The translations under genes and the position numbers were made by a program. Below the pieces are notes generated by a model. It did not search any database and had not been told where the DNA came from. It was given only the letters and a program-made list of their open reading frames with translations. From positions 3,403,025 to 3,467,024 of the forward strand of contig CM082596.2 of the NCBI GenBank assembly GCA_040954595.2: 64,000 bases of DNA, written 5' to 3'. The stretch is from Balanoglossus misakiensis (Eukaryota > Animalia > Hemichordata). Of this stretch, positions 6,001 through 57,200 are shown piece after piece (within the stretch, counting starts at the first letter, position 1; each line of letters opens with the position of its first letter).

Positions 6001-7694
6001 TCCAGAAAACTCAATTTTTCGAATTCGAGAATTTTCAAAATTTGGTGATTTTTTGATAAAAACCATGGGTTATAGCCCATGAAAATCGTCCAGAAACCTC
6101 AATTTTTCGACTTCGCGAATTTTTAAAATTTGGTGATTTTTTGATAAAAACCATGGGTTATAGCCCATGAAAATCGTCCAGAAACCTCAATTTTTCGACT
6201 TCGGAATTTTCAAAATTTGGTGATTTTTTGATAAAAATCATGGGTTATAGCTCATGAAAATCGTCCAGAAACCTCAATTTTTCGACTTCGCGAATTTTCA
6301 AAATTTGGTGATTTTTTGATAAAAATCATGGGTTATAGCTCATGAAAATCGTCCAGAAACCTCAATTTTTCTACTTCGCGAATTTTTAAAATTTGGTGAT
6401 TTTTTGATAAAAATCATGGGTTATAGCTCATGAAAATCGTCCAGAAACCTCAATTTTTCGACTTCGCGAATTTTCAAAATTTGGTGATTTTTTGATAAAA
6501 ATCATGGGTTATAGCTCATGAAAATCGTCCAGAAACCTCAATTTTTCGACTTCGCGAATTTTTAAAATTTGGTGATTTTTTGATAAAAATCATGGGTTAT
6601 AGCTCATGAAAATCGTCCAGAAACCTCAATTTTTCGACTTCGCGAATTTTCAAAATTTGGTGGTTTTGGGATAAAAACCATGGGTTATAGCTCATGAAAA
6701 TCGTCCAGAAACCTCAATTTTTCTACTTCGCGAATTTTTAAAATTTGGTGATTTTTTGATAAAAATCATGGGTTATAGCTCATGAAAATCGTCCAGAAAC
6801 CTCAATTTTTCGACTTCGCGAATTTTTAAAATTTGGTGATTTTTTGATAAAAATCATGGGTTATAGCTCATGAAAATCGTCCAGAAACCTCAATTTTTCG
6901 ACTTCGCGAATTTTCAAAATTTGGTGGTTTTGGGATAAAAACCATGGGTTATAGCTCATGAAAATCGTCCAGAAACCTCAATTTTTCTACTTCGCGAATT
7001 TTTAAAATTTGGTGATTTTTTGATAAAAATCATGGGTTATAGCTCATGAAAATCGTCCAGAAACCTCAATTTTTCGACTTCGCGAATTTTTAAAATTTGG
7101 TGATTTTTTGATAAAAATCATGGGTTATAGCTCATGAAAATCGTCCAGAAACCTCAATTTTTCGACTTCGCGAATTTTCAAAATTTGGTGGTTTTGGGAT
7201 AAAAACCATGGGTTATAGCTCATGAAAATCGTCCAGAAACCTCAATTTTTCTACTTCGCGAATTTTTAAAATTTGGTGATTTTTTGATAAAAACCATGGG
7301 TTATAGCTCATGAAAATCGTCCAAAAACCTCAATTTTTCGACTTCGCGAATTTTCAAAATTTGGTGGTTTTGGGATAAAAACCATGGGTTATAGCTCATG
7401 AAAATCGTCCAGAAACCTCAATTTTTCGACTTCGCGAATTTTCAAAATTTGGTGGTTTTGGGATAAAAACCATGGGTTATAGCTCATGAAAATCGTCCAG
7501 AAACCTCAATCTTTCGACTTCGCCAATTTTCAAATTTAGTGATTTTTCTGATAAAAACCATGGGTTATAGCTCATGAAAATCGTCCAGAAACCTCAATCT
7601 TTCGACTTCGCCAATTTTCAAAATTTTGTGATTTTTTGATAAAAACCATGGGTTATAGCTCATGAAAATCGTCCAGAAACCTCAATTTTTCGAC
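1..7694. repeat. Tandem satellite array, 88-bp monomer (86-bp variant), roughly 87 copies, runs off the left edge of the window
   Basis: Monomer TTTCAAAATTTGGTGATTTTTTGATAAAAATCATGGGTTATAGCTCATGAAAATCGTCCAGAAACCTCAATTTTTCGACTTCGCGAAT repeats head-to-tail (period 88 measured 4->92). Copies are near-identical, with recurrent diagnostic variants, and degrade over the last ~200 bp. Confidence 0.98.
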
Positions 7695-7791
7695 AAAATC
7701 ACCAAAGTTCGTCGAGAATTGCCAACTTAGAACTTGTACATATACATTACACCCTATGTGAAAGGTGTAAAAAAAAAGATGAGAAGACAGA

Positions 7792-8902: not shown

Positions 8903-10724
8903 CTATAATTCATCATGATCTGCATAATGAACAGTAATTTTCCACCAATCTCTGAGTTGCTGCACGCGACTCCAGTCTACCAAATACCACCACGAGCTGA
9001 TGTGGTCCTTTCTGATATTCTGGTATTTCAAATAATAAGCGTGCTCCCAGACATCAATAACTAGGATTGGATAAAGGCCCTCGGTTAACGGTGAATCCTG
9101 ATTGGCTGATGTGGTGATTACCAATTCCTCTCTGTCTGTGTGCAGTTTGAGACACAACCATACATATCCTGGAAGAGGAGACACAGGCAAGGGTGAATAA
9201 GAATGTTTGTGAGAGAGGGGGGAAGGGGAGAGAGAGAGAGAAAAAGGGAGAGGGACAGACAGATATAAAATTCAGTACGGTATAAGTACCCGGGTTCATT
9301 AAATGAATTAGGATTGTACAAAGGTACTGATGTTAAAGAGACAATGCATGCTTGTTGACAAGTTATGATCTTTCAAGATCGGTATTGAAAAAGGAAATTG
9401 CAAATACTACCATCATACATGTACATACCGGATCCAAACAAGACATTGGCTTGAGTTGAGAACGCCTCTTTGAATTTGGAAAAACTTCCAAAATCTCTCT
9501 GGATGAGTGAAAGCAGGCTACCTTCCGGGGTCCTGGTCTCACTTTGATGATTAGGAGACATTACAGACCAATACAAATTATGGTTGACATAACTGTGGAG
9601 AAAAGAAGAGAAGGTTGACTGGCACATGTATACAAAGTCCAAAAGTACCACAAAACTGATTGAACACTCCACGCTTGCCTGACTCTTTCTGACCACAAAA
9701 CTTTGCTTTCAATTTTGCGCAATTTGTTCAAATAAAAGAGAATCATGAATTACAAAAGCAAAATGTTCAGGGAAAATGTGTTGCCAAACATGACTTTAAT
9801 TATGTAGCTAATTTATACTTACCCACCAGCAAAGTTTCTCAGATAACTCCTGTGTATTTCTGATACTTTATTTAACTTTTGCAAAACAACGTAGATTGGT
9901 TCTGAAGCCAAGGCTTCCTGCCCCTGTGACTGTGTTTTAAATGAAAATATGCCTTTTATCTTTGTGGAAAAATTCTCATAATGCAACTTGCTATGGTAAG
10001 CTATTGGTACACACGTCAGAATAATATAGTAGGGACAGAGACCCATTGGCAACAATTAAAGAAATATACAGTCATCTATAGCCATGGTTACCATGGTATA
10101 CTGAAATTTTGCCTTTCATTTGGAAGATAGCAAAAATAGTCCCCACCATAAGATCATTAGAAAATTTAGACAATATGGTTATATCCATCAAAGAGTTGAT
10201 GCTAACGATGAATTGACATTGCATGGCTACATGGGTCGCCCGAAATCCGCAAGTGAAAATAAGAGATATCAAAACTGAAACCATGGATGATGGAGGTTCC
10301 ACAGAACTGAAACTGAAAGTTTATCATTCCTATATTTAGATCAAAGTTAGGCCAACGTGTAGGTTTCAGCCACAGAAAATGAACATCGTTTTAAAAGGAA
10401 TTTTGGCCTGCTTTACAATCTGCTCAAAGTTGACTAACTTGGAGTGGTCCGATTTATCTATATTCTAACCTTGGTCCGCCAGTTTTGCAAAGCTGCATTC
10501 ATCTTTTGCGCGTAGCCAGCATGATGTCCCAAGTGATGGATGCGAACGGTGGCTTCGTCAATGTGCGGCTCAAGATCGGAGTAGCCATACGGCAGTGTCG
10601 GTAGCTGGTAGATGTCTGCGTGATTTGCGATCACCTCGTATGGTAGTGGCGCATCGGCGATGCCCTGTGAAGGAAAAACAACGAACGCAGTAACCACTGC
10701 AACGAGAACCCGGAAGACATTCAT
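8903..10724 (-). CDS. Fe/Mn superoxide dismutase (Mn-type signature) with signal peptide and C-terminal HDEL; 4 exons, ~263 aa
   Basis: Exons 10724-10470, 9929(or 9923)-9823, 9592-9429 and 9168-8903, all GT-AG and phase-consistent (792 nt). Motifs: LPTLPYGYSDLEPHID, RIHHLGHHAGY, NFAGGYVNHNLYW, FGSF..FK..F, FGSGYVWL, NQD, DVWEHAYYLKYQN. All four metal ligands (H,H,D,H) are present. N-terminus MNVFRVLVAVVTAFVVFPSQG; C-terminus ...YADHDEL*. Confidence 0.95.
9212..9255. repeat. GA-rich microsatellite / polypurine tract in SOD intron 3
   Basis: AGAGAGGGGGGAAGGGGAGAGAGAGAGAGAAAAAGGGAGAGGG; this is a polypyrimidine tract on the coding strand, upstream of the exon-4 acceptor. Confidence 0.7.
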
Positions 10725-11499
10725 GTTGATCACTGGATGAAGATCAGGTGACTACGTACCCCGATCAGGTGACTACAACATGACCCTTATAAATGGGGTC
10801 AAAACCAGCCAATGGGGGATGACATAAAAGTTTCATTTCAAAAAGCGCCTAATATTAATTAAGACACTTTTATTTAAAAAAAAACACAGTATAAATACAT
10901 TGTGATAGAAACGAGCAGCCAACCATTGTTTGAACAAAATGACATAACAAATACAATGATAATATGTGTAATTTAATGATTCATAAAAAGGGGAAATAAT
11001 GGGCCAAATGTCAATTTGAGAATTATAAAATAGCCTACCAGTGTGCATCTGAATTGTATCTGGTTGTCGCTCCTTTTTTGCCACCATCAAGCTGCAGAGG
11101 GTTCAGTGTGACCTGAATTTATGAAAAGTTAGTCGGTTGACCTTGACACGTACCCTGCCTGAATAGGTTGTCACAGTGCAGTTGTCCCAGTTATGTACAT
11201 GTATTGAGGGATATTTCCATTCTGCAAAGAATAAAACCTATTAGCAAAATATCCAATTGTATAACCGATTGCATTCGGCTGTGATATATGTCAAGAGTTT
11301 TTAAGTGAGTTTTCAGTTTCTATTCTCAAACATGATCCATGTATGTTTGGCATGACCTAGTCAAAGATGAGAGTGACCCCACCTGAATGAGACACTGGAA
11401 GAACCCTATGCAACACAACAATGAAACTGGGTTAAAGTATAATTGATCCGCGGCATACAGCTGGTACGTGCACATCATAGTATAAGTGTCACGACTAGC
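10725..11499. promoter_or_regulatory. Divergent (head-to-head) intergenic/promoter region between the SOD and ACSM genes
   Basis: 775 bp separate the two ATGs. The region contains a duplicated GATCAGGTGACTAC (10742-10755, 10763-10776), TGACCC-N-GGGTCA flanking TATAAAT (10781-10801), and CCAAT at 10809. Confidence 0.6.
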
Positions 11500-14400
11500 A
11501 TGGCGTGCCGTATTTTGGGGAGAAAACTTCATCATTGCAACAATTGGAGTCTGGGCGTCAGGGCTGTGGCTGCCTTTAACAAAAATATCCGAAATGTCAC
11601 AAGTTTGGGAGGAACCAGCAAAGCAAAATGTCATGTCATGTCGTCACATTTCTGGACGCAATATCTGAGGTCCCACTGCACTGCAGTATCAGCAACCGGA
11701 TACACTGATTTCCAAAAGGAAAAGGAAAACTTCAAATGGGAAGTGCCGGAATACTTCAATTTTGCAACCGATGTAGTTGACAGGTGGGCCGAGAAAGAAC
11801 AGGTTGGTACAAATCTGGTAACAATGACCCCATTTCAATATCTGATGTGTGTAAAGAAAACAAGGATAAGGTCACGAATGTCACCTCTTAAGGTGAAGGT
11901 CCCAGATTAACCCACCAGTCAAGTTATGGCATTTACTTTAACTTCACCAACAGACCGGGGAACGTGATGCCACTGTACCTGCTCTGCACTGGGCAAACGA
12001 TGCTGGCGATGAAATTAAATGGACTTTCCAAGACATCAGCACCAAGTCTAAAAGGTAAAGTTCTGCCATGTTTATGACAAATTAGTGGTTATAATTCAAA
12101 GTATTTTAATCATGATCACAAAATAACTGTCCTTTCCAACTTTAGCCATTTAACATCAAAGTAAAAATACTTCAAATTACCAGAATTGTAACTTTGTTCC
12201 TTAAAACAATAACAATTGGATGATCTTTTAGCAGTTTTCTGCTTATTTTGTCTTTCATAGGACAGCAAATCTACTGACACATGATTGTGGTTTGAAAAAA
12301 GGTGACAAAGTTATCGTCATCTTAGAGCGTGTTCCTGAATGGTGGCTTGTGTACATTGCCTGTGTCAGAATTGGTAAGTATGATTTCAATGCTTGTTAAA
12401 TTTCTTAGGACAACTTATTTTGTGATCATTGAACCAACCACAATAACCAATATCAACTGATTAACCGCGACAGATATGAACATCTCAACTCCTTGCGTGA
12501 CAGATTCACCAGTCAATGACAGAGAAATGACAAAGATCTTTCTCTTTGAACTCTTTGAACAGGTGCCATTATTTGTCCTGGTTCTCCCCAATTGAGGACT
12601 GCTGACATTGAATATAGATTAACTATTTCCAAGGCAACTACAATCATAACTGATAGCGAGCATGCAGAGATGGTGGACCAGGTACATGTACTTCCCTGGT
12701 TTCCTTCAAGAGGGTTTTCTACGTACATGTCATTATGGTTTAAGGATTACTAGTAATACCCAACAGATATTTAGCTCAAGAGATTGATTTGATTCTAGCA
12801 TTAAGATCATTGGCCACCGTATAAACTTATTTTACAGTTTGAGTTGGCCAGCTATGGGCACTGATTTCAGAAGAGCAATCAAATATAATTGCTAACTTAA
12901 TGATCATCTCTACATTGATGTGTGGGGGTGTCTGTGTGCATAAACACCATGTACTTACATATGTATATTTTTTAGGTTATAGAAGGCTGTCCTGATGTGA
13001 AATGCAAACTTTTAATACCTAAAAACAAAGAAGAATCAAGGTATGAATTTACAAATGTAAGCGATCTTTACCGCATGAAGTTTTCAAAATGTTACAATAT
13101 GTACTCAGAGGTAATTGTAATAAGGAGAAATTCCATGACAATCGTCAACAGATGACAAATTTCCGACTTTGCGATCTTCTGTGATTGATCAAGGACGTGC
13201 TTCTAAGGGCCAAAAGATGTCCGCAAAAAGCACCGCCAGCAAGGCGTGGTTATTGGTTATTGTTCAAAGTGCATTTGGTAAGTGCAGATTTTATAGTTCC
13301 GGCAGCAACATCTTCTCACATCGCATACTTTAATTATTACTTATTTGTATTGTTCAGGTCAGGCTGGCTCCATTTCCGTGAACTTTTTGACAAAGCAGAC
13401 CATAATTTTGAGGCAAGTCAACTCACTTCTTGTGAAACAGAAATGGAAACCGAAAGATGTACTGGTTGCTATAGTGATGAACGTGTTCAAGTGCTGGAGT
13501 GTTAGCAGAGATTCCTGAAGACTTAATTAATCTTGCTGTCTTGTAGTAAGAGGTCATTATTTTTTTTAAATCTCCTTTATCCAGGCTGTTCAAACGAAAA
13601 GTGATGATTCCATGGTTGTATTCTTCACCAGTGGAACTACTGGTAAACCTAAGATGACTGAACACACTCAAGCCAGCTATGGCATAGGACACACACTCAC
13701 AGGAAAGTAAGATCCTGTCCGACTCAATTGTTTTCATTTGTACAACATATTTTTTTTTCTTCAAGTTTTCGCGTGCAATTGGTTTAAAACTTTCACCTTT
13801 TTATAATTCAAAGTGTTAAGATCACAGCAAGCAAATGTTGACATTTTATCATATCTGAATCAAGATGTTGAATTTTTGTTTCTGTGTCAGGTACTTTATG
13901 GATTTGACAAGTCGTGATGTCTTCTACACATTGGCAGACACTGGCTGGGCAAAAGCTGCCTACAGCTTCATCTATGCGCCTTGGATTTGGGGTGCATGTG
14001 TGTTTGCTCACCACTGCCCCATGTTCGGCCCTGTTCATACATTGGAGGTAAATTCGTACATATTTCAATAAATGTTCTTCAGGTGCAATGAGAGCACATC
14101 TGGGAACAACTGTAGTTTCCAAACACGGAAATCATTTTTTTTTACCAAAATATTTTCCCGCAAGATTTTATAATACAGTCACAAATAGTATCAAAAATGT
14201 TGCAGTTAACCCTCGTCAACTCATGGCCAATTTAACATAATGAACATCTAACACTAATACTGGTCAGTTTCAATTGTGCTCATTTTGTGGGTATTATATT
14301 CAGGTTTTGCAGAAATATCCAGTCTCTGTGTTCTGTGCCCCGCCAACAGCTGTCCGTATGATGGTTCAAGAAGATCCTGCACATTTCAAGTTTCCGCATC

Positions 14401-16173
14401 TTCGCCGGACAGTTTGTGGAGGTGAACCAGTGGTGAGAGAGAACATCAAATAAAATGTATTGGAGTGGCTTTCAGAAATAGAAAATAAAATGTCGGTCTT
14501 CACCAGGTGACATTTGAATATGACAATCCCAATGCTGACATACATGTTGAAGCATTCTATCAATGAACTGTATTCCGTTTGTTCGATTTCAGAATCCAGA
14601 AGTTGTCCATGCTTGGAAAAAATTAACCGGTATGTCCATCTATGAAGGATACGGCCAATCAGAAACTGTGAGTTGATTTGTGATCATTTATAACATTTTC
14701 CCAACGCTCAGAATTACTCTCCTCTACTGATGTGCACTGACCTAGAAGTAGTTGTCACCCATGTTATAACTACATGTACAGCATTGATAGTTGCAGTGGT
14801 CTTGATGACGGCGATGTTGGCCATGACGATGACGATGACTATTGATGATTCTTTACTGACAATTTTGCAGGTTCTACTGTGTGGAACTTTTCCTGGGGTG
14901 AAGCAACGACTGGGATCCATGGGAGTTGCCTGCCCGGGAATGGATGTTCGAATTGTTGACGACGACGGAAACGAGCTGCCTCTCAATGAGGAAGGTCACA
15001 TCGCTGTGAAAGTCAAACCAGAGAGGCCACCGTGCCTATTTTCACAGTATCTGGTGAGTCTTCATTACATGTATGTGATCATCCACTTATGTGCCTGAAC
15101 TCTATCACAGTATCTGTGTACCCGTTTCACAAATTTCTACATTTCCGTTTCCGTTACCCAGGACGATGAAGAACGCACAGCTGCCGCTTTTGTTGGTGAC
15201 TATTACCTCACAGGTGACAAGGGTTACAAAGACGAACACGACTACTTCTGGTTTGTGGCCAGAAAAGATGATGTCATCATATCGGCAGGGTAACATTTTA
15301 CTTTGTGTTGATCACATGACACTGTCACTTTATATACAGATAATTTTGGTGTAGAGAGCAAATTTATAGATGATGAAATATTTTTTGACAAGGATTTTAT
15401 CCAGGAGGACCTGACCCTCTGATAAGCTTCTGGTAGATTTGAGAAATTATGTTAACTTACTGATTTAAATACACTGGCTGTATTTTTAATCATTGATATT
15501 TGCAGACATCGCATTGGTCCATTCGAGGTGGAGAGCGCCCTATTGGAGCACCCGGCGGTAGCTGAGTCGGCAGTCGTCAGTAGTCCTGATGAAATTAGAG
15601 GCGAGGTAAGAACAATTAAAACTCTTTTGTTTAAGCCTTTTTGTTTAATAGTAATACCTGGATGTTTAGTTTCATCTTGTGTCAGGAGGTTGGTAAGATT
15701 TTAACTTTTCTCACTTTTTGGTTGTCATGGTTACTCACACAGATTGTGAAGGCTTTCGTAGTCCGATCCTTACAACACAGAGACCGCGATGAAGTTGAAT
15801 TGATCAAAGAATTACAAGATCATGTGAAGAAGGTAACAGCGCCATACAAATACCCCAGACAGGTCAGTTTAGTCACACTTCAATATTCCTTTTATCTTAC
15901 GTGTTTGCTTTCTATAAAGGTTGAGACTGTGCTGAAGCATGTCAGGTTAATAATAACTGGAACAGATTTAAAGTGAATTTTATACCCAAATCACCAGTAT
16001 TGCATCATTAGGACTATATTAAGTTTCCTTTTAATAATCACAAATGCTACTAAGATTTTCTGTTTATTTTTTTCGTTTGACAGATCGAATTTTTAGATGA
16101 ATTACCCAAGACTGTTAGTGGCAAGACCTTGCGATATGTGCTCCGCAACAACGAATGGAACAAGACGTACTAA
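11500..16173 (+). CDS. ACSM: Acyl-CoA synthetase, medium-chain family (ACSM-like), mitochondrial; 15 exons, ~619 aa
   Basis: Exons 11500-11802, 11954-12054, 12261-12373, 12563-12681, 12976-13040, 13358-13412, 13585-13706, 13891-14047, 14304-14432, 14593-14667, 14871-15053, 15162-15289, 15506-15605, 15743-15862, 16084-16173 (1860 nt, open frame). Motifs: [28 protein letters not shown] (P-loop), [52 protein letters not shown]. The Arg-rich, acid-free N-terminus resembles a mitochondrial presequence. Confidence 0.95.
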
Positions 16174-17054: not shown

Positions 17055-20000
17055 TTATGCCGTTGGTTCGGGTTTTATCTCGCTCTTCTCCGACGTGTCG
17101 TCATCGGTGGTGAACGAGAAGGACTGCTGAACCAGACAGTAGCGTCTGATCGTCATGGTTTCAGTGGTTGCCATGAGACGGCACTGGTGTTTGTAGTCGT
17201 CCATGTAATCCCTCAGTCGTCTGCTATCAAGCACAATATCCTGGCGTCGGCTTTTGGCGTCGTCCATGTTACTCAACCAGGGGTGGTGCAGGCATTCAAG
17301 CACAGTTGGTCTGTCCCTGAGAATAAAAAGGCAAAACGTAGAGTGCAAATGTATGAAAAAAATTCTAAAGAAATCTATAGAATTCTATGGCCTATAAAAT
17401 TTCCATTGAAATTTATAGAATTTCTATGGACATCTCTAGAAGTTTTCTGTAGTTTTGGCCATTTTTTATTGAATTCTATGAAACTTTCATCTGGCACATA
17501 TACTTACTTGCCGTGTCTTTGTAATGTAAGTTTTAAGAAGTCTCTGGCTTGATCGCTGACTTGGTGGTGGAGTTTGGACAGGTCACACGACGTGGTCAAA
17601 ATGTTGGCCATAGTCTCTGATTTGTCCTTGCAAAGAAATGGCGACACACCACTCAACCTTAAGAAAAGAAAAAATGAAAGTGAGAGTATGTTTTCCATAT
17701 ACCTTTAAACTTGAGTGTGAGATATAAAATTACAGAAATTAAAGACAAACGTGAAATATATTCAAATAACTCACATGATGAATGTTAGGATACCAATAGA
17801 CCAGATATCGGTGGCAGTGTTCACCAGCTGTCCTTCAACTGCCTCTGGAGCTGAAACGATGTAAAATAACTTAAATGCTTATAATGCTCAATAGGATAAC
17901 AAATGCAGACTTTTTGGCCACAACAGATAAATTTAGTCTCCCATCTTACCGGACGATGTTCAATTTATCTCGAGATGTTCTTTGTAATATGAAAAGTGAC
18001 ACTTTTCTGTTTGTGTCTACAGTATCCCAATAAAGAATGTACACCAGGGGATTGGTACATAATAACACATCCAGAGGAGCAAAAAGTCATATCATAATCA
18101 ACACATTAGATTCTCAAGAAACTACTCACCCATAAACTCTGCCATCATCTCGACATCAAGTTTGATCCCCTTCGGATCGGCAAGTTTCCTCGCAGAGCCA
18201 AAATCAATAAGTCTGACATCATTCCTCCTCCTGCTCTCCAGCAAGACGTTGTCCGGTTTGATATCCAGGTGGACGATATTCTGCGAATGCACGTAGTCAA
18301 CCGCATCTAGGAGCTGCTGCAGGAACTCCACCACCTCGTCCTCGGAGTACGAGCCCTTGCTGGCCAGGTAGCGCGTCACCGGTCCGCCGTAGTACCGCTC
18401 CGTGATCAAGATGAGGTATCGGGGCGTCAGGAAGGCGTCGTGCAGCATGCCGATGCGTGGGTGGCGCAGGTCCTTCAGGAGTTCGAATTCCTTGAGGACG
18501 TGACTTTCGGTGTCCAGCTTGATTCTCAGCATTTTGGCGGCGTATTCAATGTTGGTGCTGTGCTCTACGCACTTCTTGACCACAGCAAATCGACCCCTGT
18601 AGGCGAAAACAGTAACATACTTATTTAATTTAAAGTCTATGACAACCTTAGGAAACAAATTTTGTAAAAAAAATTACGGCATCTGCTGAAATGAAATGAG
18701 GGAAAAAATCTAACTGAAAATGAAAGCACTAGTTCCATCACTCAAAGTGTAATGCATAATTGGAAAGTTAGTTTCTTTCAATCAGATCTCTACCAAGTTT
18801 TCAGGAGAGCACACTTACATGCAACTAATCAAAAACCCAACTCCTTACCTTCCAATCTCATCTTCAAAGTTATAATTCTTCTGAGGTATTGACGTCTTCA
18901 GAGTGATCACAACTTCTTCATCGGCATCAACAGACTCAAATGATCTTTCTGTTGAGGACTGGCGTTTCATCCCAGCAAAACTAACCGATCTCAAAACCTG
19001 TAATCGGTCCGATCTTTCGATTTGAAGTTGGGGAGAACCTGTGAAAAAAACATGTCAGTTTGTACATAACAAAATTTTCAAGCAATAGTTTTGTTTTCAT
19101 CAATAACTCGTGGAGTGTTCAGTTTTCTGTAAAATTACTACTTCTGCAGTTCAGTCAATCTTGTAAAATTTGAACGTTACAGTCACAGATATTTGTGAGC
19201 TGACTACAGGTTCGACAGACAAAAATAATTAAAACTTCTGGTCCCTATTTCTTTCTCTCAATGGCTGATACATTCGTAGAAATCAGTGTTGAAGTTGAGG
19301 TAGAATCTGACCACATTACTGCTTTGACAATTCCTAATCCACTCAGTGCTGATGAAGGCGAGATTTCTGTAATTGAGAAAATTTGACACGCTACATACCT
19401 GCTGGCATGGTCTTCACCTGTGCAGATGATCGACTGTACGGACTGGATCCAATCTTATTGCGGCACGCGATTCGGAATCTATATGGTGTGTCTGGTTCCA
19501 GATTCTTGACATGGAGACATGCTTCTTGAATTTCATCAGATACCAATACCCAGTGTTTTTCACCTGAAATGATTTTTGGGATATTCAATGCAGCATTTTT
19601 ATCAAACAACAGTTTCACGATCTGGTAATAACTTGTTGTACTGCATGGAATTATCCTGTGATACATTCTGACTTGTTCCATCAGTCAATAAAATACAGTA
19701 CTGCTAGAAAGCAACCAGTTGAAAAAGCAACATATCACACTGGGAAAGATCTTACCTGCTTTTCTGTATTGTAGTTTGTAGGCTTTGAGAGGACAGTTGC
19801 CTGTGTAGTGTGGCGCTTTCCATGTGACAAATGCTTCCGTAGCTGATATCAGTGGCACTCGAGGTCGTGAAGGCTTGTCAGGTAGATCTGGAAAAAGAAG
19901 GGTGGAGCTGTTGGAAATATATATTTTGGATATGCCACATTCCTACTATTGTAGATGAATATTTTGATGGGGACAGTCTTAACTTGTTCTGAATTTTCCA

Positions 20001-21360: not shown

Positions 21361-22986
21361 TTATAAATTGACAAAAATGTCTAAAATAACAGCAATTATA
21401 ATGCCGCATATGGCACTCAGTATGATTCTAAAAGTTGGACTGAATCTTAGCCGGACTGTCATAGGAATTTTCAGTTCTTCATAGCTGACTGTTTGGTTCA
21501 GCATGATTTCAAGGTCTTTCTCCATTTCCTCAATGGAACGTTTTTCGTCCACAGTGCCGGCCGACGAGGCGCGTTTCAACGCACCAAAGAATCCATAATC
21601 AGTGTTTGCTTTGGGCAGATCTTTCTTCAAGTGAAGTTTCATCATAGTCTCCGCGAGGGACAGCATTTTGGGTTTTGCGTTCGTCCCGTTCTCTGCAGAA
21701 TCTTTGTTTTCGTTTTCGAGATTGAAGGAGACACCAAGACGTCTCTGCCTCGGAAGGTTTTGTTTCAAAATGGACGCCTGTCCTGATTTATTTGCGGGAT
21801 TCTCGGCTTCCTTCTCTTCCAGATGTGTATCCTCCGTCACTGTTTCTAGATCACTCAGACTTCTCTGAAGTCTGGAATCATTCCCTTTCCCACTTTTCAC
21901 TCCTGATTTCTTATCCGGAATGTTATTATTACTGAGTGACACCGAATCACCCATACTGTTCAAACGTTTGACACAATTTTCTGATTTGGTGTGATCGGCT
22001 CGCGAGGATTCTTTAACTGACAACCCAGCCTGTCTGACTCGAAGCTCTTTCTTTTCTGCAGGTTCAGCTAAGTACACCTTCTTACTAATCTTTTTAAAAG
22101 CCTGTCTGAAAGCGTTATCCTCTTTGGGGGAAAACTGCATGGCTTTCTCATATTCCTGCTCTACGGCCGTCGGTGGGACTGCCTCACATTCGACCTCCGA
22201 GTTGGTTTCGGTGTAACACCCGACACAAGTTGTGATCTCATCACTTTCGTCTCTGTTTTGTGAGGCTGCTGTCGTTTCATACACAACAGAGCTTATCGTA
22301 CTCGTGGAGGTAATTCTAACAGTGGCTGTGTCTCCAGTTTCAGACTTTGTCGTCATAGTAACCATTTGCCTATCATCATCAATGGTTTCTATCTCGACAT
22401 CACAGTCACTTTCGCTTGCATCATACTCTGTCTCCCTATCTAACTCTGAACACTTTTTAGATCGACAAACCGCTAATCTTTTCACAGCTCTTCTATTGTA
22501 AGTTGGCATCCTGGGTTTTCCAGGTTTACAGCCTGCAGCTGACTTTATGGCAGACTTTTCTGAGTGTGAATCTAATTCATCCAACACCTGCTCTATGTTT
22601 ACTGGACTACAGCTACACCATGCATAGTTAGCCGTGGCATGCTCTACATTCGGGTACAAATCCTTCCTCAACAGTTCCTTGATAATTCCTGGCGGTGCAA
22701 GCATAGGCATATTAAGTCTGTGAATACCTTCCACGTCTCGTGCCGTCTTCTCCTCTTCCGGTTTCTTCTTCCGGCTCAACGGAAGCTGCGGAATCTTGAT
22801 GGAGATCTCGCCCTCCTCTGCCTGGATGTCCTCCGAGCTTCCCGACTTGGTCGCCGGGCTGCGCTCCGTGTCCGACGTCCCGGAAGCGGTGCCGGGGGTC
22901 TGCCTTCCCAGGTCGGAAAGCGAGTCGGAGCTGATTGTGGAGAGACGGCGGATCCTCATGGCGGATTTGACAGCTGTCAGTGCTTT
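21361..22986 (-). CDS. Post-kinase-2 exon with internal donor (22728); read-through yields a ~455-aa unique tail ending in a transmembrane helix
   Basis: 541-codon open frame from the acceptor at 22986 (KALTAVKSAMRIRRLS...). The internal donor GAAG|GTATTC at 22728/22727 is phase 1 and fits exon 20403. The ORF otherwise continues to ...RFSPTFRIILSAICGIIIAVILDIFVNL*. Confidence 0.8.
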   Translation of the reverse strand, partial: KALTAVKSAMRIRRLSTISSDSLSDLGRQTPGTASGTSDTERSPATKSGSSEDIQAEEGEISIKIPQLPLSRKKKPEEEKTARDVEGIHRLNMPMLAPPGIIKELLRKDLYPNVEHATANYAWCSCSPVNIEQVLDELDSHSEKSAIKSAAGCKPGKPRMPTYNRRAVKRLAVCRSKKCSELDRETEYDASESDCDVEIETIDDDRQMVTMTTKSETGDTATVRITSTSTISSVVYETTAASQNRDESDEITTCVGCYTETNSEVECEAVPPTAVEQEYEKAMQFSPKEDNAFRQAFKKISKKVYLAEPAEKKELRVRQAGLSVKESSRADHTKSENCVKRLNSMGDSVSLSNNNIPDKKSGVKSGKGNDSRLQRSLSDLETVTEDTHLEEKEAENPANKSGQASILKQNLPRQRRLGVSFNLENENKDSAENGTNAKPKMLSLAETMMKLHLKKDLPKANTDYGFFGALKRASSAGTVDEKRSIEEMEKDLEIMLNQTVSYEELKIPMTVRLRFSPTFRIILSAICGIIIAVILDIFVNL

Positions 22987-23253
22987 CTGTGAAAGTAAAA
23001 AAAGGAACAAGTACTTAGTGTTTGTAGACTCTCAGAAGTCAAATGAAGACATGCAGATAACAGCCTATAGGCCTTGTAAACACCTGTCTACATGTATGTG
23101 TAGACAGGGAAATGATATGGCAAAGAATGGCCTTTTAAAATACAGATAACATACAATAAATTCGTGCACTTTTATAGAGATCTCTTCTGTGAATGACCCC
23201 GGAAATATCTATCAGAAACATGATGAGATTACTAAATGTAGATATGAACCCAC

Positions 23254-29200: not shown

Positions 29201-30171
29201 ATGTGCACCTCTACTTTACGCAAGTTAGAATTGGCCAAAGACCAGGTGTGGCTAGAATGATAAAGGCAAAATCATGACCCCTGATTGGTCAACGGCCATT
29301 AGAACAGTGACTAATAATAATATGCAAACAAAAGGATACAGTTCCATGACCATGATAAGTTCTCTCTTGGTTTCAAAAGCGTCCAACAGTTTAATGAGTC
29401 TCAGATGATCCAACTGGGCCATGATTTGCATTTCTTGTTTGGCTTCCCGTCTGGCTTGCGGTTTGGCGTGGATGAATTTGGCTGCGGCATCTTGTCCATC
29501 CTTTCTGGTGATGACACGCTTGACCACACCAAAGGCACCCCTGGAAACATAGTGTTACGAAAACAGTAATGAATTATGTCGAGAACACTTTGGTCTGAAT
29601 TACCTGTGAAAGAGAGCTGAGTGCCACTTTCTTTAAGAGGCTGTTTGTGTGACCTTTTCATGACCTTACATACTTGCGTCAAAAGTCAACCAGACGACAC
29701 TAATGAGTTCTTATATAACGCAAGTAATTGTGCTCTAGGCGTTTTACAACCGTCCTATTTAAATTGTGTTTATACTTATTAGTTCAGAATCTAAGTTCTC
29801 CATTTTTCTTGGCTATAAAAGCAAGAAAACTTGATAGTGAAGATACAACATACCAAAGAAAATGTCATGTAAGGTCATGTAAGGTCATCAAAGAGCCTAT
29901 TGTGGAAGACATGCAATGCTGGTGAGAATTTGGACATAAATATAACCTCACCACAAACTCAACCTTTTTATCTAAATAGTTCTTGGAACCTGAGGACAAT
30001 TGCACAGTGTCACAATATCTGTTTTCTTACGAATTGATCCACAAAATAACAATGAAGTTTCTTATTCTCCTCACCTTCCAAGCTCTTCCCTGATTTCATA
30101 ATGGTCTTCCATTTTCTCCTTTCTCTTGAACTTGATTTTCCTGGTTTTGACATCTTCCTCAGAACTGGGAT
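23254..30171 (-). CDS. Kinase 2 (SPEG/obscurin SK1 position, MLCK/DAPK-family) with autoinhibitory/CaM-binding tail
   Basis: Exons 30171-30075, 29540-29340, 26982-26844, 24836-24637, 24536-24384, 23823-23778, 23331-23254. Motifs: ELGRGAFGVV, AAKFI, MELVTGGELF, HLDLKPEN, DFGLA, FGTPEFVAPE, DLWSLG, LSGISPF, RMTTQECLDHPWL, KLSTEKLKSFNARRKWQ. Confidence 0.93.
23363..23498 (+). mobile_element. Dispersed MITE-like repeat, copy 1
   Basis: TTAACCCTTTCATCACCATTGGACGGTCCAAATCCACTGTTTTCTA aligns with 44237 TTGAACCTTTCACCACCATGGGTTGGTCCAAATCAATTGTTTTCTA. It ends ...GGGAAGTTAA, weakly complementary to its start. Confidence 0.5.
25370..25379. promoter_or_regulatory. CArG box (SRF site) CCATATTAGG in a kinase-2 intron
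   Basis: Exact CC(A/T)6GG match in an intron of a muscle gene; function not shown. Confidence 0.3.
26983..29339 (-). other. U12-type (minor spliceosome) GT-AG intron in kinase 2
   Basis: Donor GAACT|GTATCCTTTT. Branch site TACCTTAAC (27009-27001) lies ~20 nt before the acceptor CAG|TGTCACC, with no polypyrimidine tract. Splicing restores MELVTGGELF. Confidence 0.9.
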
Positions 30172-51291: not shown

Positions 51292-54200
51292 TCACAGTGA
51301 CAATTTCCCCATACGCGTTAGTGCTCTCACAGCATTGAAAGCTTTCTGTGAAGTGAAAGGCAAAAGATAGAGTTAGTATTGTGAACATACATAGAAAACA
51401 GAAAAACCTGGAACTGAAAGAAAGCAATATATTGTCAGTTATAGTGATGATAACAATCAATGTACCCTCTCTGAGACAAATTCCGTTTTAACATGACACA
51501 CACCCCTTTGCACTGTATCTGCACATATAAGGGCAGATTGGCATGAGACGATACATACGTACATATAATAATTAGTACACTGTGCAAGGAGGTTATTGTG
51601 TTAGCACTATGTATGACGTAGTCATTCCTCAGATCGGGTTGGAGGAAAATTCTTGCAAGGAGAGATAAATTCCAAGTCGGAACACAAGCTGTGATGTGTC
51701 AGCTAGTCTATGAAGGGCATAGCAAATGGCATATTGGATGGTTAACAACTGAGGGGTCGTTGGGGATTCAACTTACCATGGCAACAAATCTGTGCAGTGT
51801 ACATCCGAGTGTTACGTGCTTTGGTGGAGATGCATGGTAAGCTTAGCAAGTCAGGGTATTTTTTAGTTGTCAGTTATTAGGCAAAGAAAAAACATTAGTA
51901 CATAAGTAGTTATTAAAAAAGGTGGATTTCTCTGGTTAACATGGTAACGGTAGTTTAGGTCTGAACAGGTCACTCTCATGACGTTACATCCTGGTGTATC
52001 AAAGTGGCCACTATAGACAAGTGTCCTCTATCTAGAGGTGGGTATTATACAGGATTGACTGTACATGTATGTGCTTTGGGTTGTCGGTGGACCACAGTGT
52101 TATGATGGGTTGTGCATTTTCCAGTGTTAGTACATTAAAATGCGGGACGGATATTCAGGATGTAAAATCACAAAAATAACAGAAAATGGTTATTTGTACT
52201 GACCTGCCACTTTCGTCTTGCCAAGAACCGTCTGATCCTGGCCTTGGAGATTTTGTGCGAGCTAGCAACATCTTTCTGCAATGGCGAAATAGAACGAGAT
52301 CATGTTAGACACAGAACAGGTGATGACGTCTGTTTTTACACAGTAGTGTTCATACTGGCTGCATCAGAATTATTTAGAAACAGCAATGTAAGGCAGGTTC
52401 GACTGAAAATGTTGACCAAGCCACTGTAGAAATGGAGGAATTTTCTTACCTTTAACCAATCAGCTTCTAGGGCGTCTGCTGCTGATAATCTCTCCCTGTA
52501 CAGCAAAAGAACAACAACCGAGAACGGTCAATCATTTCATTCTACAAGACAGCAACCTTATCTATGTCAGTGGAGCGGTCCCAGTGAACAAAAAACTTCC
52601 AATAAATCATCACAGAGAAGGGAAAAAATCACAAAGCACTCACCTAGGGTTGAGAACAAGAAGATTTTCAATAAATTCCTTAGATGCATCAGAGATCTCG
52701 TCAAAGGACTCATCCTCAAAGTCCCATTCGGCCGATGTGACGTTAGACATGGTCTCTCCATCATTGTCTCCCATGAATGGCGAGAGACCACTGAGCAGGA
52801 CGTAGCAGATGACACCTACGCTCCACATGTCTGTAGCCTTTGTAATCTTGTCGTAATTTATAACTTCGGGTGCTGTAAACTCTGGTGTACCGAACATTAC
52901 TTTAAGGGTTTCTTTCGGGTTGTATTTTCGAGCCAGGCCAAAGTCAATAATTTTGATCTTATTACTCTTAGGCCTTACACAGAGAATATTTTCAGGCTGT
53001 GAAAATAAGAGAGAAGAAAAGTGGTTTGTTAGTTCTTTATTCCATTGAATATATATAGCTACTTTTGAGCAGCAGCAAGGGCTGCAATGGCTTGTTGCAG
53101 AGATCTGTTGATAAACAGACGTCATCTGATTTGCCCGACTTTTGTATTATGCTGGCCTAGGAAATTACTGGGGAAATAGCTAGCATATCAGCATTCTATG
53201 TGTCATAGTTTCAATCCCCACAGGACATGAAGTACATATCAATTCTAAACATCCATCAAGATGCTATGAGCAACATCGTCTGCCTCTAGAAATGTTTGGA
53301 GCATTTCTTGTATTCTTTGCATCACTCAATTAATGGCCTGTGTCTGTACATCTTTGACCTTGGCTCTAAACTTTTGTCATTGAATGACCTTAAGTCATTC
53401 ACCTCGCTGTGGTGTCAACCGAAAAAATTTAATGTGAAGCGATCAGAAGAATCTGGGCCAATCAAAGGGTTTACTTGATAAAAGAATGTTATCAATTCAC
53501 TGCTGGGGCAATGTACTCACACATAACCAATTCAAAATTAATGGGAACTAGCCCTATAGCTAAACTAATTACAGACTACTGCATTTGTGGTTGCGTTGGC
53601 AGTACTTGTTTATAAGAAACTGTATATCCTAGGGATGTAAATTAAGGATATACAAAAGTTGCCCGCAGCAAATATCATTGGCATGGCAGAGATGTCACGT
53701 GCCATCATAGCAGGGGGTTCGCTTAGTTTACATATGTTTACATGTTTTCAAAAAACATCAAGGTTTCAGAGGTTTGTAGTTGCATGGTTGTTACATTCTG
53801 GGTTTGTTTTATCAACAAGGAATATATTTGCATTATTCTGCAAGTAGGAAATGAAAATACAGAATAACAGAATGTCTGAAACTAGATATGATGGATGGAG
53901 ATGAGCTGAACCTATTTTCCTTGTACTCTGGTCCAATCTCAGCAGTGAAATGCCAAGGACTAAACCAAAGTACAGTGATGATGAGGGGAGGGAGGGGTTG
54001 GCCTTACCTTCATATCCAGATGAATGATGTTTTTCTTATGCATGAATACTACGCCGTCACATATCTGCCTCATGAAGAACACAACTTCTTTCTCTGTCAG
54101 TTGGAAATCTTCTGCAACAACACGTTCAAACAACTCTCCACCAGATACACTGTAAGTGGAAAAACATTCAGATTTAATGATGAGACAATGACAGTCAATG

Positions 54201-57200
54201 AAGATGCAGGCTGAGTTAATGAAAATGCAACTTGAATCAGTGAAAATAAATAGTTCTATGATCTACGATAACTTCTTTCAAATGTTCCTGTGTCTGACAG
54301 GTCAACAATTTCCATGCATGACTGGAAACCAAGAGTGACGTTTCCACGGAAACACACCATGGCCAGTGTCAGTGGTATACTCACAATTCCAAAATTAGTA
54401 CATAGTTATCTCCTGATGCGAAGGCGTCGTACAGCTGCAATAGTTTTGGGTGTTGTAAAATTTGCATGATGGAAACCTCATTGTCTACTTCCTCTCTGTC
54501 AGTTTGCGATGTCACTTTGATGAATTTGGCTGCGAGAATTCTTTTCGTCTTCTTTTCTACACATTTATTAACTGTTCCGAATTTTCCCCTGAAAAAGGAA
54601 AGAAGACCATGAAAAGATTTCCGTTAATAACAATCGCATACATGTGAATGCTATTGTATGGTGCCCTTCCTGGAGAATGTATGGTCAACTTAGAAGACAG
54701 CATATGAAGTATTGACATATTAATGACAATATCTATAAAATTATGGATGTCGCTCACATTTTTTGTCGTTCACAAGAAAAAAATCTGACAAGAATAAATT
54801 TCGAAATGTCATTTTCTTCAATAGCTACAATTATTTTTGTTCGCTATAAGAATTCCAAAGAGACAAGCACTGTAATTTCATTTGTTCATCATTTTCTTCA
54901 GAAATCATAGCTGGAACTGCAAGAGTCTGTTTAACTCATCCTTGCATGGGGTCAGTCGGCCAATAAAAACGAGCGAGTGTTGAAAGTCAAAAAAGGTATC
55001 AAGCGAGGCATGAAATTTCCGCGAGGTTATGAATGGAATGGACGGTGTGGTCACGTCACGCAGAAGAATGCAGTTTCTATTCCTGACCAAGAAATTGCTT
55101 ATTATTAAACCAAGTATGGGGAAACAACTGCTTATTTATGGTGGAAACTAATCCCTTGGCCTGTTAGTGTCTTTCCATATGAACAGCGCAAACTCTTTGG
55201 AGTTATTTTTCTGCTTCTGTCTTTATTTTTCTCTGTCTGTGTTCTGGGGTGAGTGATGAAACTATGTCTGTTTTTTGCACAGGCTTGGCGTTATTAAGCC
55301 GCAGTCCAAGTATGTGTGATACTTTCAGGTCATTCCAAATGTCAACATGTCAAGTCAGAAAATGGTCTTTCGTATCAGTTGACTGGGGAGGAAAGGCATT
55401 AGCTGGAGTAGATGGATTTTTTTGCTTCCACATATCTCTATATTTGCTAGAGTTCTTCTCTCAGTTTTATGGCATGAAAATTTGAGAATAATCACGGATG
55501 AAGCCAAAAACAGCTGAGAGCAGATAACAAGGCAATCTTTTTTTAAACTTTGAAGTCAAATGCTTCCAATTTTTCAAACATCTGATGCTGTCTATCCTGT
55601 CGTGTTAAATGTTGCCCCATTTTGGTCAAAGGTTAAAGTTGAAACCTCCTGGATGAAATAAACTATGGCAGAACGAGGAGTACTGCTGATAATCAGTCTT
55701 TTTCCTGACATTTTTATGGCCACAGAGATATGCTACAAGTTCTGCTCTGTGATGAAAAAGTAGTGGCCTGACAGAAAACAATTTAAGTACATTCACATCA
55801 TGTAAAAACATTTGACTTTTACTCTACTGTACTGAACAAAAAATATTTTCATATTGCTTCATCCAGCTGCCAAACTGACTAGGGCAATAATCAACCAGCG
55901 GGAGAATTCATAAAGTTGGTATTCACTTCTAACAATTGGAGACATTCCAAAGGTACTAAAGTTTGGTTTTATGGCCTCGAGCAGATTTTAGACTGCTTCC
56001 AGCCGCCCTGCCTCGAAGCAGCAGAATCCAGTTCACAATGCAGTGGTGTGATTTTTCCCTTGTGCATTCCGGTGACCGGACACACAGAAGCTGATCACTT
56101 ACCTTCCAAGTTCTTCCTTGATTTGATAGAAGTCTCGAACATTTGTGTCCTTAACTTTTACATCTCTCGGTTCAAAAGCTTGTTCATCTGTAAAAATACA
56201 AACAGAAATACATTTTTTATCATTTATTTAAGTTCCATGGTTTCAAGAAAGAGATGAGCATATAAACTTTTTAACAATCAATGTCTTTAAATGTTTCACC
56301 TTACTGCTCTAAACTTAAAAAAAATTTGATTTCTGTTGAAAAAGATTAACTACAATGAATTTGTAAATGAATCACAGTGCCTCAACTTTATGCCAGAGCA
56401 ACTCCTCAATTTATTTTTGAATTCACAATCATCCAGTTTGATGTGGCCTCTAGTCACAGAATTTTAACCTTCCGACAGTCCATCATGGCGTGAGCAACAT
56501 GTTGTTTTTAAAACTGGTGCGTTCTAATTATTTTTCTGAACCTTTGAGGACAAAACAGTTTAAAATGCGGACACAGACATTGACAGTAAGTGGGGGAATG
56601 ACGTCAATGGCGGTAACCATATATGGCCATCGACTGTAAACTCGTACAAGGGGGTAGAGAGAGCTTCTCTGCCCAGTTGATAATTTACGCGCACGCACAC
56701 AAATCATTTAACACCCAGGGAGTTAAGTGCACAGTGAACTTGGTGGACGGAAGCATGGGGAGCGAGAGTATCGCGACATGTCGCGACACATTTCAGGCAA
56801 CGGTGGGTGTTTTCCCCGAAAGCTGGGCAGTGTCTGCCAGCCGGAAAGTCAAACTCGGCTACTGGAATTACTGATAGGGCAGTGAAGGAATGTCCCGCAG
56901 TTTGCCGTGACAGCCTCAGTAATGGAAGTTGAAGATGTCAACAGAGGGAGGGACAGTCGGGGGAGTTTTTTTCAAATCACTACTCGACTCATCCGCGCAG
57001 GGCCTCTGGTCATCTTCAGGCACAGCGCAATCACCAAGACCAAGTACAAATCAGACATCTCTCCCTTGGTGTTTCCCTTATTAAAATATGCCTGTTGGCT
57101 CAATTCACCAACTCACTCACCCCCAAAAATTAACATTAAATATCTTACCTGGTTCATCTTCTTCATCAACTTCTTCCTCTGTGTCAAAAATAAAAATACA

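What the first reader, a model, noticed from the sequence alone, without database searches (positions are those of the whole stretch)
8903..10724. Predicted ER-lumenal Mn-type superoxide dismutase (signal peptide + HDEL) in an animal
Seen: the spliced ORF begins with a hydrophobic signal-peptide-like segment (MNVFRVLVAVVTAFVVFPSQG) rather than an Arg-rich mitochondrial presequence. It keeps all Fe/Mn-SOD metal ligands and ends exactly in HDEL-stop. Established: animal Fe/Mn SODs are mitochondrial (SOD2) or, in crustaceans, cytosolic; secretory-pathway SODs in animals are Cu/Zn (SOD3); signal peptide plus H/KDEL is the standard ER-retention design. Inference: this is an ER-resident MnSOD class, possibly detoxifying superoxide or supplying H2O2 for oxidative folding. 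I am not aware of a characterised animal example.
Basis: partly seen in the sequence, partly recalled or inferred. Interest (0 to 1): 0.88.

Follow-up and report, generated by a model that had tools for sequence, protein, structure and literature searches.

The report
ER superoxide dismutase SOD2X, likely iron-capable
This four-exon animal gene encodes a superoxide-removing enzyme with a secretion leader and an HDEL tail, so it likely works inside the endoplasmic reticulum; it belongs to the already named but barely studied SOD2X family, and its active site suggests it may use iron as well as, or instead of, manganese.

Summary
Observation confirmed. Four GT-AG exons on the minus strand (10724-8903) give an intact 263-aa Fe/Mn-SOD with a hydrophobic leader, all four metal ligands and a terminal HDEL. 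The class is not new. It is SOD2X, named in 2022 as a predicted ER-localised animal MnSOD (PMC9524095), and the window protein groups with published SOD2X sequences (SH-aLRT 99). That lead came from an earlier scan note on a chytrid gene, so the scan has met this kind of enzyme on other DNA.

What this work adds:
(1) A KDEL-type tail ends 62 of 81 family hits and 0 of 239 other hits.
(2) Members occur in two hemichordates and a lungfish, although a 2024 survey lists SOD2X as lost in hemichordates and vertebrates.
(3) It resembles bacterial dimeric SodFM1 more than mitochondrial SOD2.
(4) 'Mn-type' is doubtful. The metal-tuning position D-2 is Val or Thr in 73 of 81, residues tied to Fe or dual activity, and the one assayed member I found is inactivated by peroxide.

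ER residence and metal use remain predictions; no RNA evidence was obtainable.

The parts
10470..10724 (-). Exon 1: start codon, leader, N-terminal extension, first metal ligand H63 (10538-10536), Y71
   Evidence: Sod_Fe_N, 56 bits
10656..10724 (-). Predicted signal peptide, residues 1 to about 23. Cleavage after A23 (or G21) is inferred from the -3/-1 rule and by homology with the Paelopatides mature construct
   Evidence: hydropathy; orthologue N-termini; primer of the signal-less construct in PMC6410416
9823..9929 (-). Exon 2 (alternative in-frame acceptor at 9923)
   Evidence: the 9929 form aligns without a gap to P. flava and G. talaboti at this junction
9429..9592 (-). Exon 3: second ligand H125 (9582-9580) and start of the C-terminal domain
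8903..9168 (-). Exon 4: Y177 (Trp in most other Fe/Mn-SODs), Q199, D214, H218, family-specific C-terminal extension, stop
   Evidence: (Sod_Fe_C, 81 bits)
9056..9061 (-). Metal-tuning pair V212 (D-2) and I213 (D-1)
   Evidence: meaning from PMC10172142 and PMC13008324
8903..8917 (-). HDEL plus TAG stop: ER retrieval signal
   Evidence: sequence; conserved in the family
10787..10813 (-). TATAA (10791) and reversed CCAAT box (10813), about 65-90 nt before the ATG; possible core promoter, weak
   Evidence: motif scan; no statistics, not tested

Best explanation
This gene is a member of the animal SOD2X family and encodes a Fe/Mn superoxide dismutase that is predicted to enter the ER by its signal peptide and to be held there by HDEL retrieval, where it would turn luminal superoxide into H2O2 and O2, likely working with either iron or manganese. 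Shown by sequence: the leader, the ligands, the HDEL tail, SOD2X membership, and likeness to bacterial dimeric SodFM1. [quoted passage not shown] Superoxide is charged and crosses membranes poorly (own knowledge), so a luminal source would need a luminal enzyme; the H2O2 made would pass to ER peroxidases (Prdx4, GPx7/8). My odds: ER or early-secretory residence about 0.85; substantial activity with Fe about 0.65; main role as local superoxide removal rather than oxidant supply about 0.7.
For: Gene model. The family runs from sponges to lungfish. Tail: 62 of 81 family hits end [KHR][DE]E[LF] and 71 of 81 end xxE[LF] or x[DE]DL, against 0 of 239 other hits; 55 of 81 have both the hydrophobic leader and the strict tail. 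The tail varies among H/K/R-D/E-E-L/F, as a retrieval signal would, and sits free after the last helix in the model of the P. flava orthologue (pLDDT 91.9 overall). HDEL binds the KDEL receptor 10-fold more strongly than KDEL (PMC8248988, abstract start in search listing). The window protein falls in a 21-row clade, SH-aLRT 99, with the Capitella, Oscarella and Sycon sequences. Those three are among 18 consecutive labels of Fig. S2 of PMC9524095, matching its 18-member SOD2X clade, and are predicted ER by DeepLoc there. PDB searches with the P. flava orthologue: best hits are Firmicute SodA-type dimers at 184 bits, against at most 148 for chains labelled mitochondrial SOD [Mn]; Foldseek ranks B. 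subtilis SodA first. Metal: D-2 is V in 66 and T in 7 of 81 family hits, but G in 169 of 239 controls. V/T at D-2 marks higher Fe preference, and G-L to V-I swaps made Mn enzymes cambialistic. The Paelopatides member (D-2 = T) is an active dimer that keeps 7.73% activity after 10 mM H2O2; peroxide sensitivity marks Fe-loaded enzyme.
Against: I found no experimental localisation of any SOD2X. DeepLoc called only 10 of 18 published members ER, 5 extracellular and 3 lysosomal. 11 of 37 named members lack the strict tail. One of these is a truncated model; others are Lingula isoforms, Solemya, two sponge paralogues without a leader, Mytilus forms with four residues after HDEL, and near-variants ending HGEL and REDL. 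13 of 81 fail the leader cut-off, many of them because the N-terminus is missing. The water-binding Gln199 and the Gly-Gly before H125 are Mn-type features (recalled rule). PMC10172142 warns that metal preference cannot be read from sequence alone. The Paelopatides enzyme was made in ordinary E. coli; 'ICP' does not occur in its main text, so I saw no metal analysis, and co-purified host FeSOD cannot be excluded. Family members were picked by me by score rank, not by an independent rule.
Confidence: 0.72

Rival explanations
1. ER-resident as above, but a strictly Mn-dependent enzyme, as the first reader and the databases label it.
For: Gln199 is kept in 76 of 81. SodFM1 enzymes are mostly Mn-preferring. 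NCBI names many members 'superoxide dismutase [Mn]-like'.
Against: D-2 is Gly in only 2 of 81 and Ala in 4. The assayed member is peroxide-sensitive, whereas Mn-active SodFMs resist peroxide.
Confidence: 0.25
2. A mainly secreted or lysosomal SOD, with HDEL only slowing export or being overridden under stress.
For: DeepLoc gives extracellular or lysosomal calls for several published SOD2X. Mytilus forms carry residues after HDEL, and the Ephydatia member lacks a tail.
Against: The tail is kept at the extreme C-terminus from sponges to lungfish. The window protein has no N-glycosylation sequon and only one Cys, unlike a typical secreted protein (weak).
Confidence: 0.12
3. The enzyme mainly supplies H2O2 to drive disulfide formation in the ER, rather than protecting against superoxide.
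For: ER peroxidases use H2O2, and classical antioxidant enzymes are scarce in the mammalian ER (passages of PMC12781119).
Against: Ero1 and Nox4 already make H2O2 directly. An Fe-loaded SOD would be inactivated by abundant peroxide. Many lineages have lost the gene.
Confidence: 0.15
4. A mitochondrial SOD2 paralogue, a bacterial contaminant, or a gene-model artefact.
For: Nearest non-animal hits are bacterial. No transcript was available.
Against: Three GT-AG introns. Colinear with a named Ptychodera protein at 71% identity. Lies among animal genes. The leader is apolar, not Arg-rich. The published tree separates SOD2X from SOD2.
Confidence: 0.03

Closest known systems
Metazoan SOD2X / Sod2X (Hewitt and Degnan 2022, PMC9524095; also PMC11721785, 2024)
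   Same: Same clade, same Pfam pair, signal peptide, predicted ER location.
   Different: The 2024 paper lists it as lost in hemichordates and vertebrates, yet P. flava, G. talaboti and Protopterus annectens have it. HDEL, KDEL and 'retention' do not occur in either main text, and 'cambialistic' does not occur in the 2022 one. Both call it MnSOD.
Ps-Mn-SOD of the sea cucumber Paelopatides sp. (PMC6410416)
   Same: Family member, 46% identical to the window protein. Signal peptide noted; active dimer; ends HEEL.
   Different: D-2/D-1 is Thr-Leu, not Val-Ile. The paper's main text has no 'endoplasmic' or 'retention'.
Bacterial dimeric SodFM1 (B. subtilis SodA 2RCV; B. anthracis SodA2 1XRE; SodA GL-to-VI mutant 9TWA)
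   Same: Best sequence and fold matches of the P. flava orthologue. Fe-active SodA2 and the VI mutants share the V-I pair.
   Different: No ER leader and no HDEL extension. Trp where this family has Tyr177 (76 of 81 family hits have Tyr).
Mitochondrial SOD2 (SodFM5, tetramer)
   Same: Same fold and metal ligands.
   Different: Lower score (148 bits at best, against 184). Mitochondrial presequence, tetramer, separate clade.
Extracellular Cu/Zn SOD3
   Same: Enters the secretory pathway by a signal peptide.
   Different: Unrelated fold and metals; secreted rather than retained.

Membership tests
SOD2X | Sod_Fe_N plus Sod_Fe_C domains | tested here: met
SOD2X | Falls in the animal clade that holds the published SOD2X sequences | tested here: met
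   quick LG+C20 tree, SH-aLRT 99, no bootstrap; the careful run did not finish; support 80. Capitella 229194, Oscarella m.309974 and Sycon scpid75220 matched by identifier to the paper's supplement. Clade colours of Fig. S2 were not visible; membership was read from label order and the count of 18.
SOD2X | Signal peptide instead of a mitochondrial transit peptide | tested here: met
   hydropathy and charge only; no SignalP or TargetP here
SOD2X | ER localisation in cells | not testable with these tools
   HDEL present; published support is DeepLoc prediction
Fe/Mn-SOD (SodFM) | His-His-Asp-His ligands and D-x-W-E-H-x-Y motif | tested here: met
   H63, H125, D214, H218
SodFM1 (dimeric, bacterial SodA-like) | Closer in sequence and fold to SodA-type dimers than to SOD2 | tested here: met
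   both with the P. flava orthologue as query
SodFM1 (dimeric, bacterial SodA-like) | Homodimer | not tested
   reported for the Paelopatides member
Mn-specific SOD | Gly or Ala at D-2 | tested here: not met
   V212; V or T in 73 of 81 family hits
Mn-specific SOD | C-terminal water-binding Gln | tested here: met
   Q199
Mn-specific SOD | Activity with Mn only; peroxide resistance | not testable with these tools
   the one assayed relative is peroxide-sensitive
Mitochondrial SOD2 | Arg-rich amphipathic presequence | tested here: not met
   1 R/K in 25 residues; 12-residue apolar core
Mitochondrial SOD2 | Placement in the SOD2 clade | tested here: inconclusive
   no animal SOD2 was among my stored proteins, so my trees lack it; PDB scores and the published tree both place it outside

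The most novel reading that the evidence does not exclude
Animals from sponges to lungfish keep a genuine iron-using (Fe-preferring or cambialistic) superoxide dismutase of bacterial SodFM1 type inside the ER lumen, mislabelled as MnSOD. It would be the resident superoxide defence of the secretory pathway, apparently lost in most vertebrates, and it would imply a route that loads Fe into an ER-lumenal enzyme. Leader-plus-xxEL/xxDL SODs in Naegleria, Balamuthia, a euglenid and two rhizarians suggest ER SODs may be old or repeatedly evolved in eukaryotes.
Probability: 0.5. Interest if true: 0.72.

Novelty: new member of a known kind. Interest (0 to 1): 0.42.

Why it matters
A recent review says the mammalian ER has almost no classical antioxidant enzymes (PMC12781119, passage). 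SOD2X would be a resident ER superoxide dismutase present across many invertebrate phyla, yet I found no experimental localisation of it. The conserved HDEL tail gives a simple test (delete four residues). The Val/Thr at D-2 gives a second: whether animals have an Fe-active SOD, which they are usually said to lack (own knowledge). The hemichordate and lungfish copies correct published loss maps; how far the gene survives in vertebrates remains open.

Tried and rejected
No whole genome is held for this window, so copy number and a co-occurring SOD2 could not be checked. No second SOD copy lies in the window (tblastn). The look-up of sequencing runs: no RNA holder listed, so no reads were laid.

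Paper searches that found no description of the class: (terms around MnSOD, HDEL/KDEL, ER retention, Anemonia, FeSOD). The name SOD2X came only from an earlier scan note; a search for it gave 5 papers, 4 listed. A sequence look-up in earlier findings gave nothing.

A search with the lungfish protein listed no other named vertebrate member among its best 120. That search is word-limited and is weak evidence of absence.

One origin for animal SOD2X and the protist leader-plus-xxEL SODs is not supported. 11 of 12 such rows fell with algal MnSODs in a separate, weakly supported group (87); one unnamed protein (P0241) fell inside the animal clade. No AU test was run. The careful tree did not finish, and I did not resume it.

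ER-stress promoter motifs (CCACG, TGACGT, ACGTG) were not found in the 276 nt upstream. Complex prediction was not used: a homodimer would pass by likeness to solved structures. The folded model is of the P. flava orthologue, not of the window protein itself.

Full report
Observation. The gene lies on the minus strand in four exons: 10724-10470, 9929-9823, 9592-9429 and 9168-8903. All three introns are GT-AG and the frame is open. Exon 2 has two in-frame acceptors. The upstream one (9929) gives 263 aa and removes a 2-residue gap against both hemichordate orthologues, so I prefer it. The N-terminus has one Arg and then 12 apolar residues, and an in-frame stop upstream rules out a longer first-exon reading. 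The protein ends HDEL-stop. The ligands H63, H125, D214 and H218 and the outer-sphere Y71, Q199, W216, E217 and Y221 are present, and Pfam finds both SOD domains. No genome is held and no RNA run was listed, so splicing rests on splice sites and homology. The nearest proteins are from the acorn worms Ptychodera flava (187 of 263 identical) and Glandiceps talaboti, so the host is probably a hemichordate. Neighbouring ORFs are ordinary animal genes.

Family. Three homologue searches and one search of cluster representatives gave a set of close relatives. I took 81 by score rank above the prokaryote-like hits, and 37 of these carry a species name. They come from sponges, cnidarians, annelids, molluscs, a brachiopod, a nemertean, chelicerates, myriapods, echinoderms, hemichordates, amphioxus and the lungfish Protopterus annectens. 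62 of 81 end in [KHR][DE]E[LF], and 71 of 81 in a looser xxE[LF] or x[DE]DL. None of 239 other hits, mostly prokaryotic, does so. 68 of 81 have a hydrophobic stretch in the first 45 residues, and 55 of 81 have both features. Misses include models that lack the N-terminus, one truncated model, two homoscleromorph sponge paralogues with neither leader nor tail, Lingula isoforms, and Mytilus forms with four residues after HDEL. An AlphaFold2 model of the P. flava orthologue (54-sequence alignment, mean pLDDT 91.9) shows the SOD fold with an added last helix and a free tail.

What is known. My own keyword searches missed the class. An earlier scan note on a chytrid gene named SOD2X, which I then checked. 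[quoted passage not shown] It comprises 18 sequences, of which DeepLoc-2.0 ER, 5 extracellular and 3 lysosomal. Their sequence file holds Capitella 229194, Oscarella m.309974 and Sycon scpid75220, the same identifiers as my P0135, P0184 and P0375/P0235. These stand among 18 consecutive labels in their Fig. S2 (colours not visible) and are called ER. In my tree the window protein is sister to P. flava and lies with these three in a clade of SH-aLRT 99 (quick search, 55 rows chosen from the stored hits; 80 in the 107-row tree). So this is a SOD2X. A 2024 survey (PMC11721785, passages and supplement look-ups) keeps the name, notes the signal peptide, and lists losses in hemichordates and vertebrates. 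It sampled P. flava from an older protein set. The named P. flava, G. talaboti and lungfish proteins contradict those two losses. Neither main text contains HDEL, KDEL or 'retention'; I searched only selected terms in their supplements, and figures are not held.

Origin. With the P. flava protein, the best PDB sequence matches are Firmicute SodA-type dimers (184 bits), and chains labelled mitochondrial SOD [Mn] score at most 148. Foldseek agrees. In the scheme of PMC10172142 (passages) this is the dimeric SodFM1 type, while mitochondrial SOD2 is the tetrameric SodFM5. SOD2X is therefore probably not a retargeted SOD2. My trees lacked an animal SOD2 and could not resolve a donor.

Metal. But the residue two before the Asp ligand (D-2), which tunes metal preference, is Val, followed by Ile. 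In the family D-2 is V 66, T 7, A 4, C 2 and G 2 of 81, against G 169, T 26 and V 18 of 239 in the controls. Thr or Val there usually marks higher Fe preference. Swapping the pair to V-I moved four Mn-preferring SodFM1 enzymes to cambialism ratios of 0.74-1.49, and Fe-active B. anthracis SodA2 has V-I naturally (PMC13008324, passages and Table 1). The sea cucumber member Ps-Mn-SOD is my P0138, matched by species, length and primers (I read parts 1-2 of 4 of PMC6410416 plus a term search). It is an active dimer that keeps 7.73% activity after 10 mM H2O2 and 90% after azide. Mn-preferring SodFMs resist peroxide and Fe-loaded ones do not. Together these favour a cambialistic or Fe-leaning enzyme, at about 0.65. 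Caveats: I saw no metal analysis in that paper, the host E. coli had its own SODs, and sequence alone does not fix preference. The family also replaces a second-shell Trp with Tyr177 in 76 of 81; its effect is unknown.

Mechanism. Shown: leader, ligands, tail, family. Inferred: co-translational import, cleavage near A23, dimer formation, metal loading in the lumen, retrieval by the KDEL receptor (HDEL is its high-affinity ligand; abstract start of PMC8248988), and dismutation of luminal superoxide, with the H2O2 passed to ER peroxidases. A review notes minimal SOD1, catalase and glutathione reductase in the mammalian ER (PMC12781119, passages); SOD2X would fill that gap in the animals that keep it. 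The source of luminal superoxide is not established.

Beyond animals. SODs with a leader and an xxEL/xxDL end also came up in Naegleria lovaniensis, Balamuthia, Ploeotia, Lapot and Nonionella. They keep the Trp and did not group with SOD2X (weak support), so one ancient origin is neither shown nor excluded.

Verdict. A real, intact gene and a new member of a known but barely studied kind. The ER reading was published as a prediction in 2022. The conserved retrieval tail, the hemichordate and lungfish copies, the SodFM1 affinity and the likely Fe capability are the additions. Interest 0.42.

Noticed in passing
window 11443-15976 (+): An acyl-CoA synthetase-like (AMP-binding) gene appears to start head-to-head with the SOD, under about 1 kb away. 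Pfam AMP-binding hits at 14694-15095 and 15635-15973 are below the curated cut-offs.
   Followed up: no
window about 18100-57800 (-): Many Ig I-set, Fn3 and protein-kinase exons (kinase at 18125-18673, 29255-29554 and 52643-54262), and a 556-aa ORF with no Pfam hit at 21361-23031. Looks like one or two giant muscle kinase genes of the obscurin/twitchin kind (names recalled).
   Followed up: no
window about 7390-7700: Tandem repeat with an 88-bp period, seen as repeated ORF translations at 7467, 7555 and 7643.
   Followed up: no
proteins P0132, P0172, P0487-P0491 (Mytilus): Six of seven Mytilus SOD2X models carry four extra residues after HDEL, while the M. trossulus model ends at HDEL: a possible masked retrieval signal and switch to secretion.
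   Followed up: no
proteins P0178, P0180 (Corticium, Oscarella): Homoscleromorph sponges have a second SOD2X-clade protein without leader or tail, with Ala at D-2 and the usual Trp. It branches first in the clade and may resemble the pre-ER ancestor.
   Followed up: partly
proteins P0142, P0143 (Branchiostoma): Amphioxus models are about 340 aa, with a Cys-rich insert of about 80 residues after the leader; real fusion or gene-model error not checked.
   Followed up: no
protein P0156 (Protopterus annectens): The only named vertebrate SOD2X found, with leader, V-I pair and HDEL intact.
   Followed up: partly
proteins P0373, P0338, P0341, P0318, P0263, P0241: Protist Fe/Mn-SODs with a leader and KDEL-like ends (Naegleria, Balamuthia, Ploeotia, Lapot, Nonionella). 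Unnamed P0241 falls inside the animal clade.
   Followed up: partly
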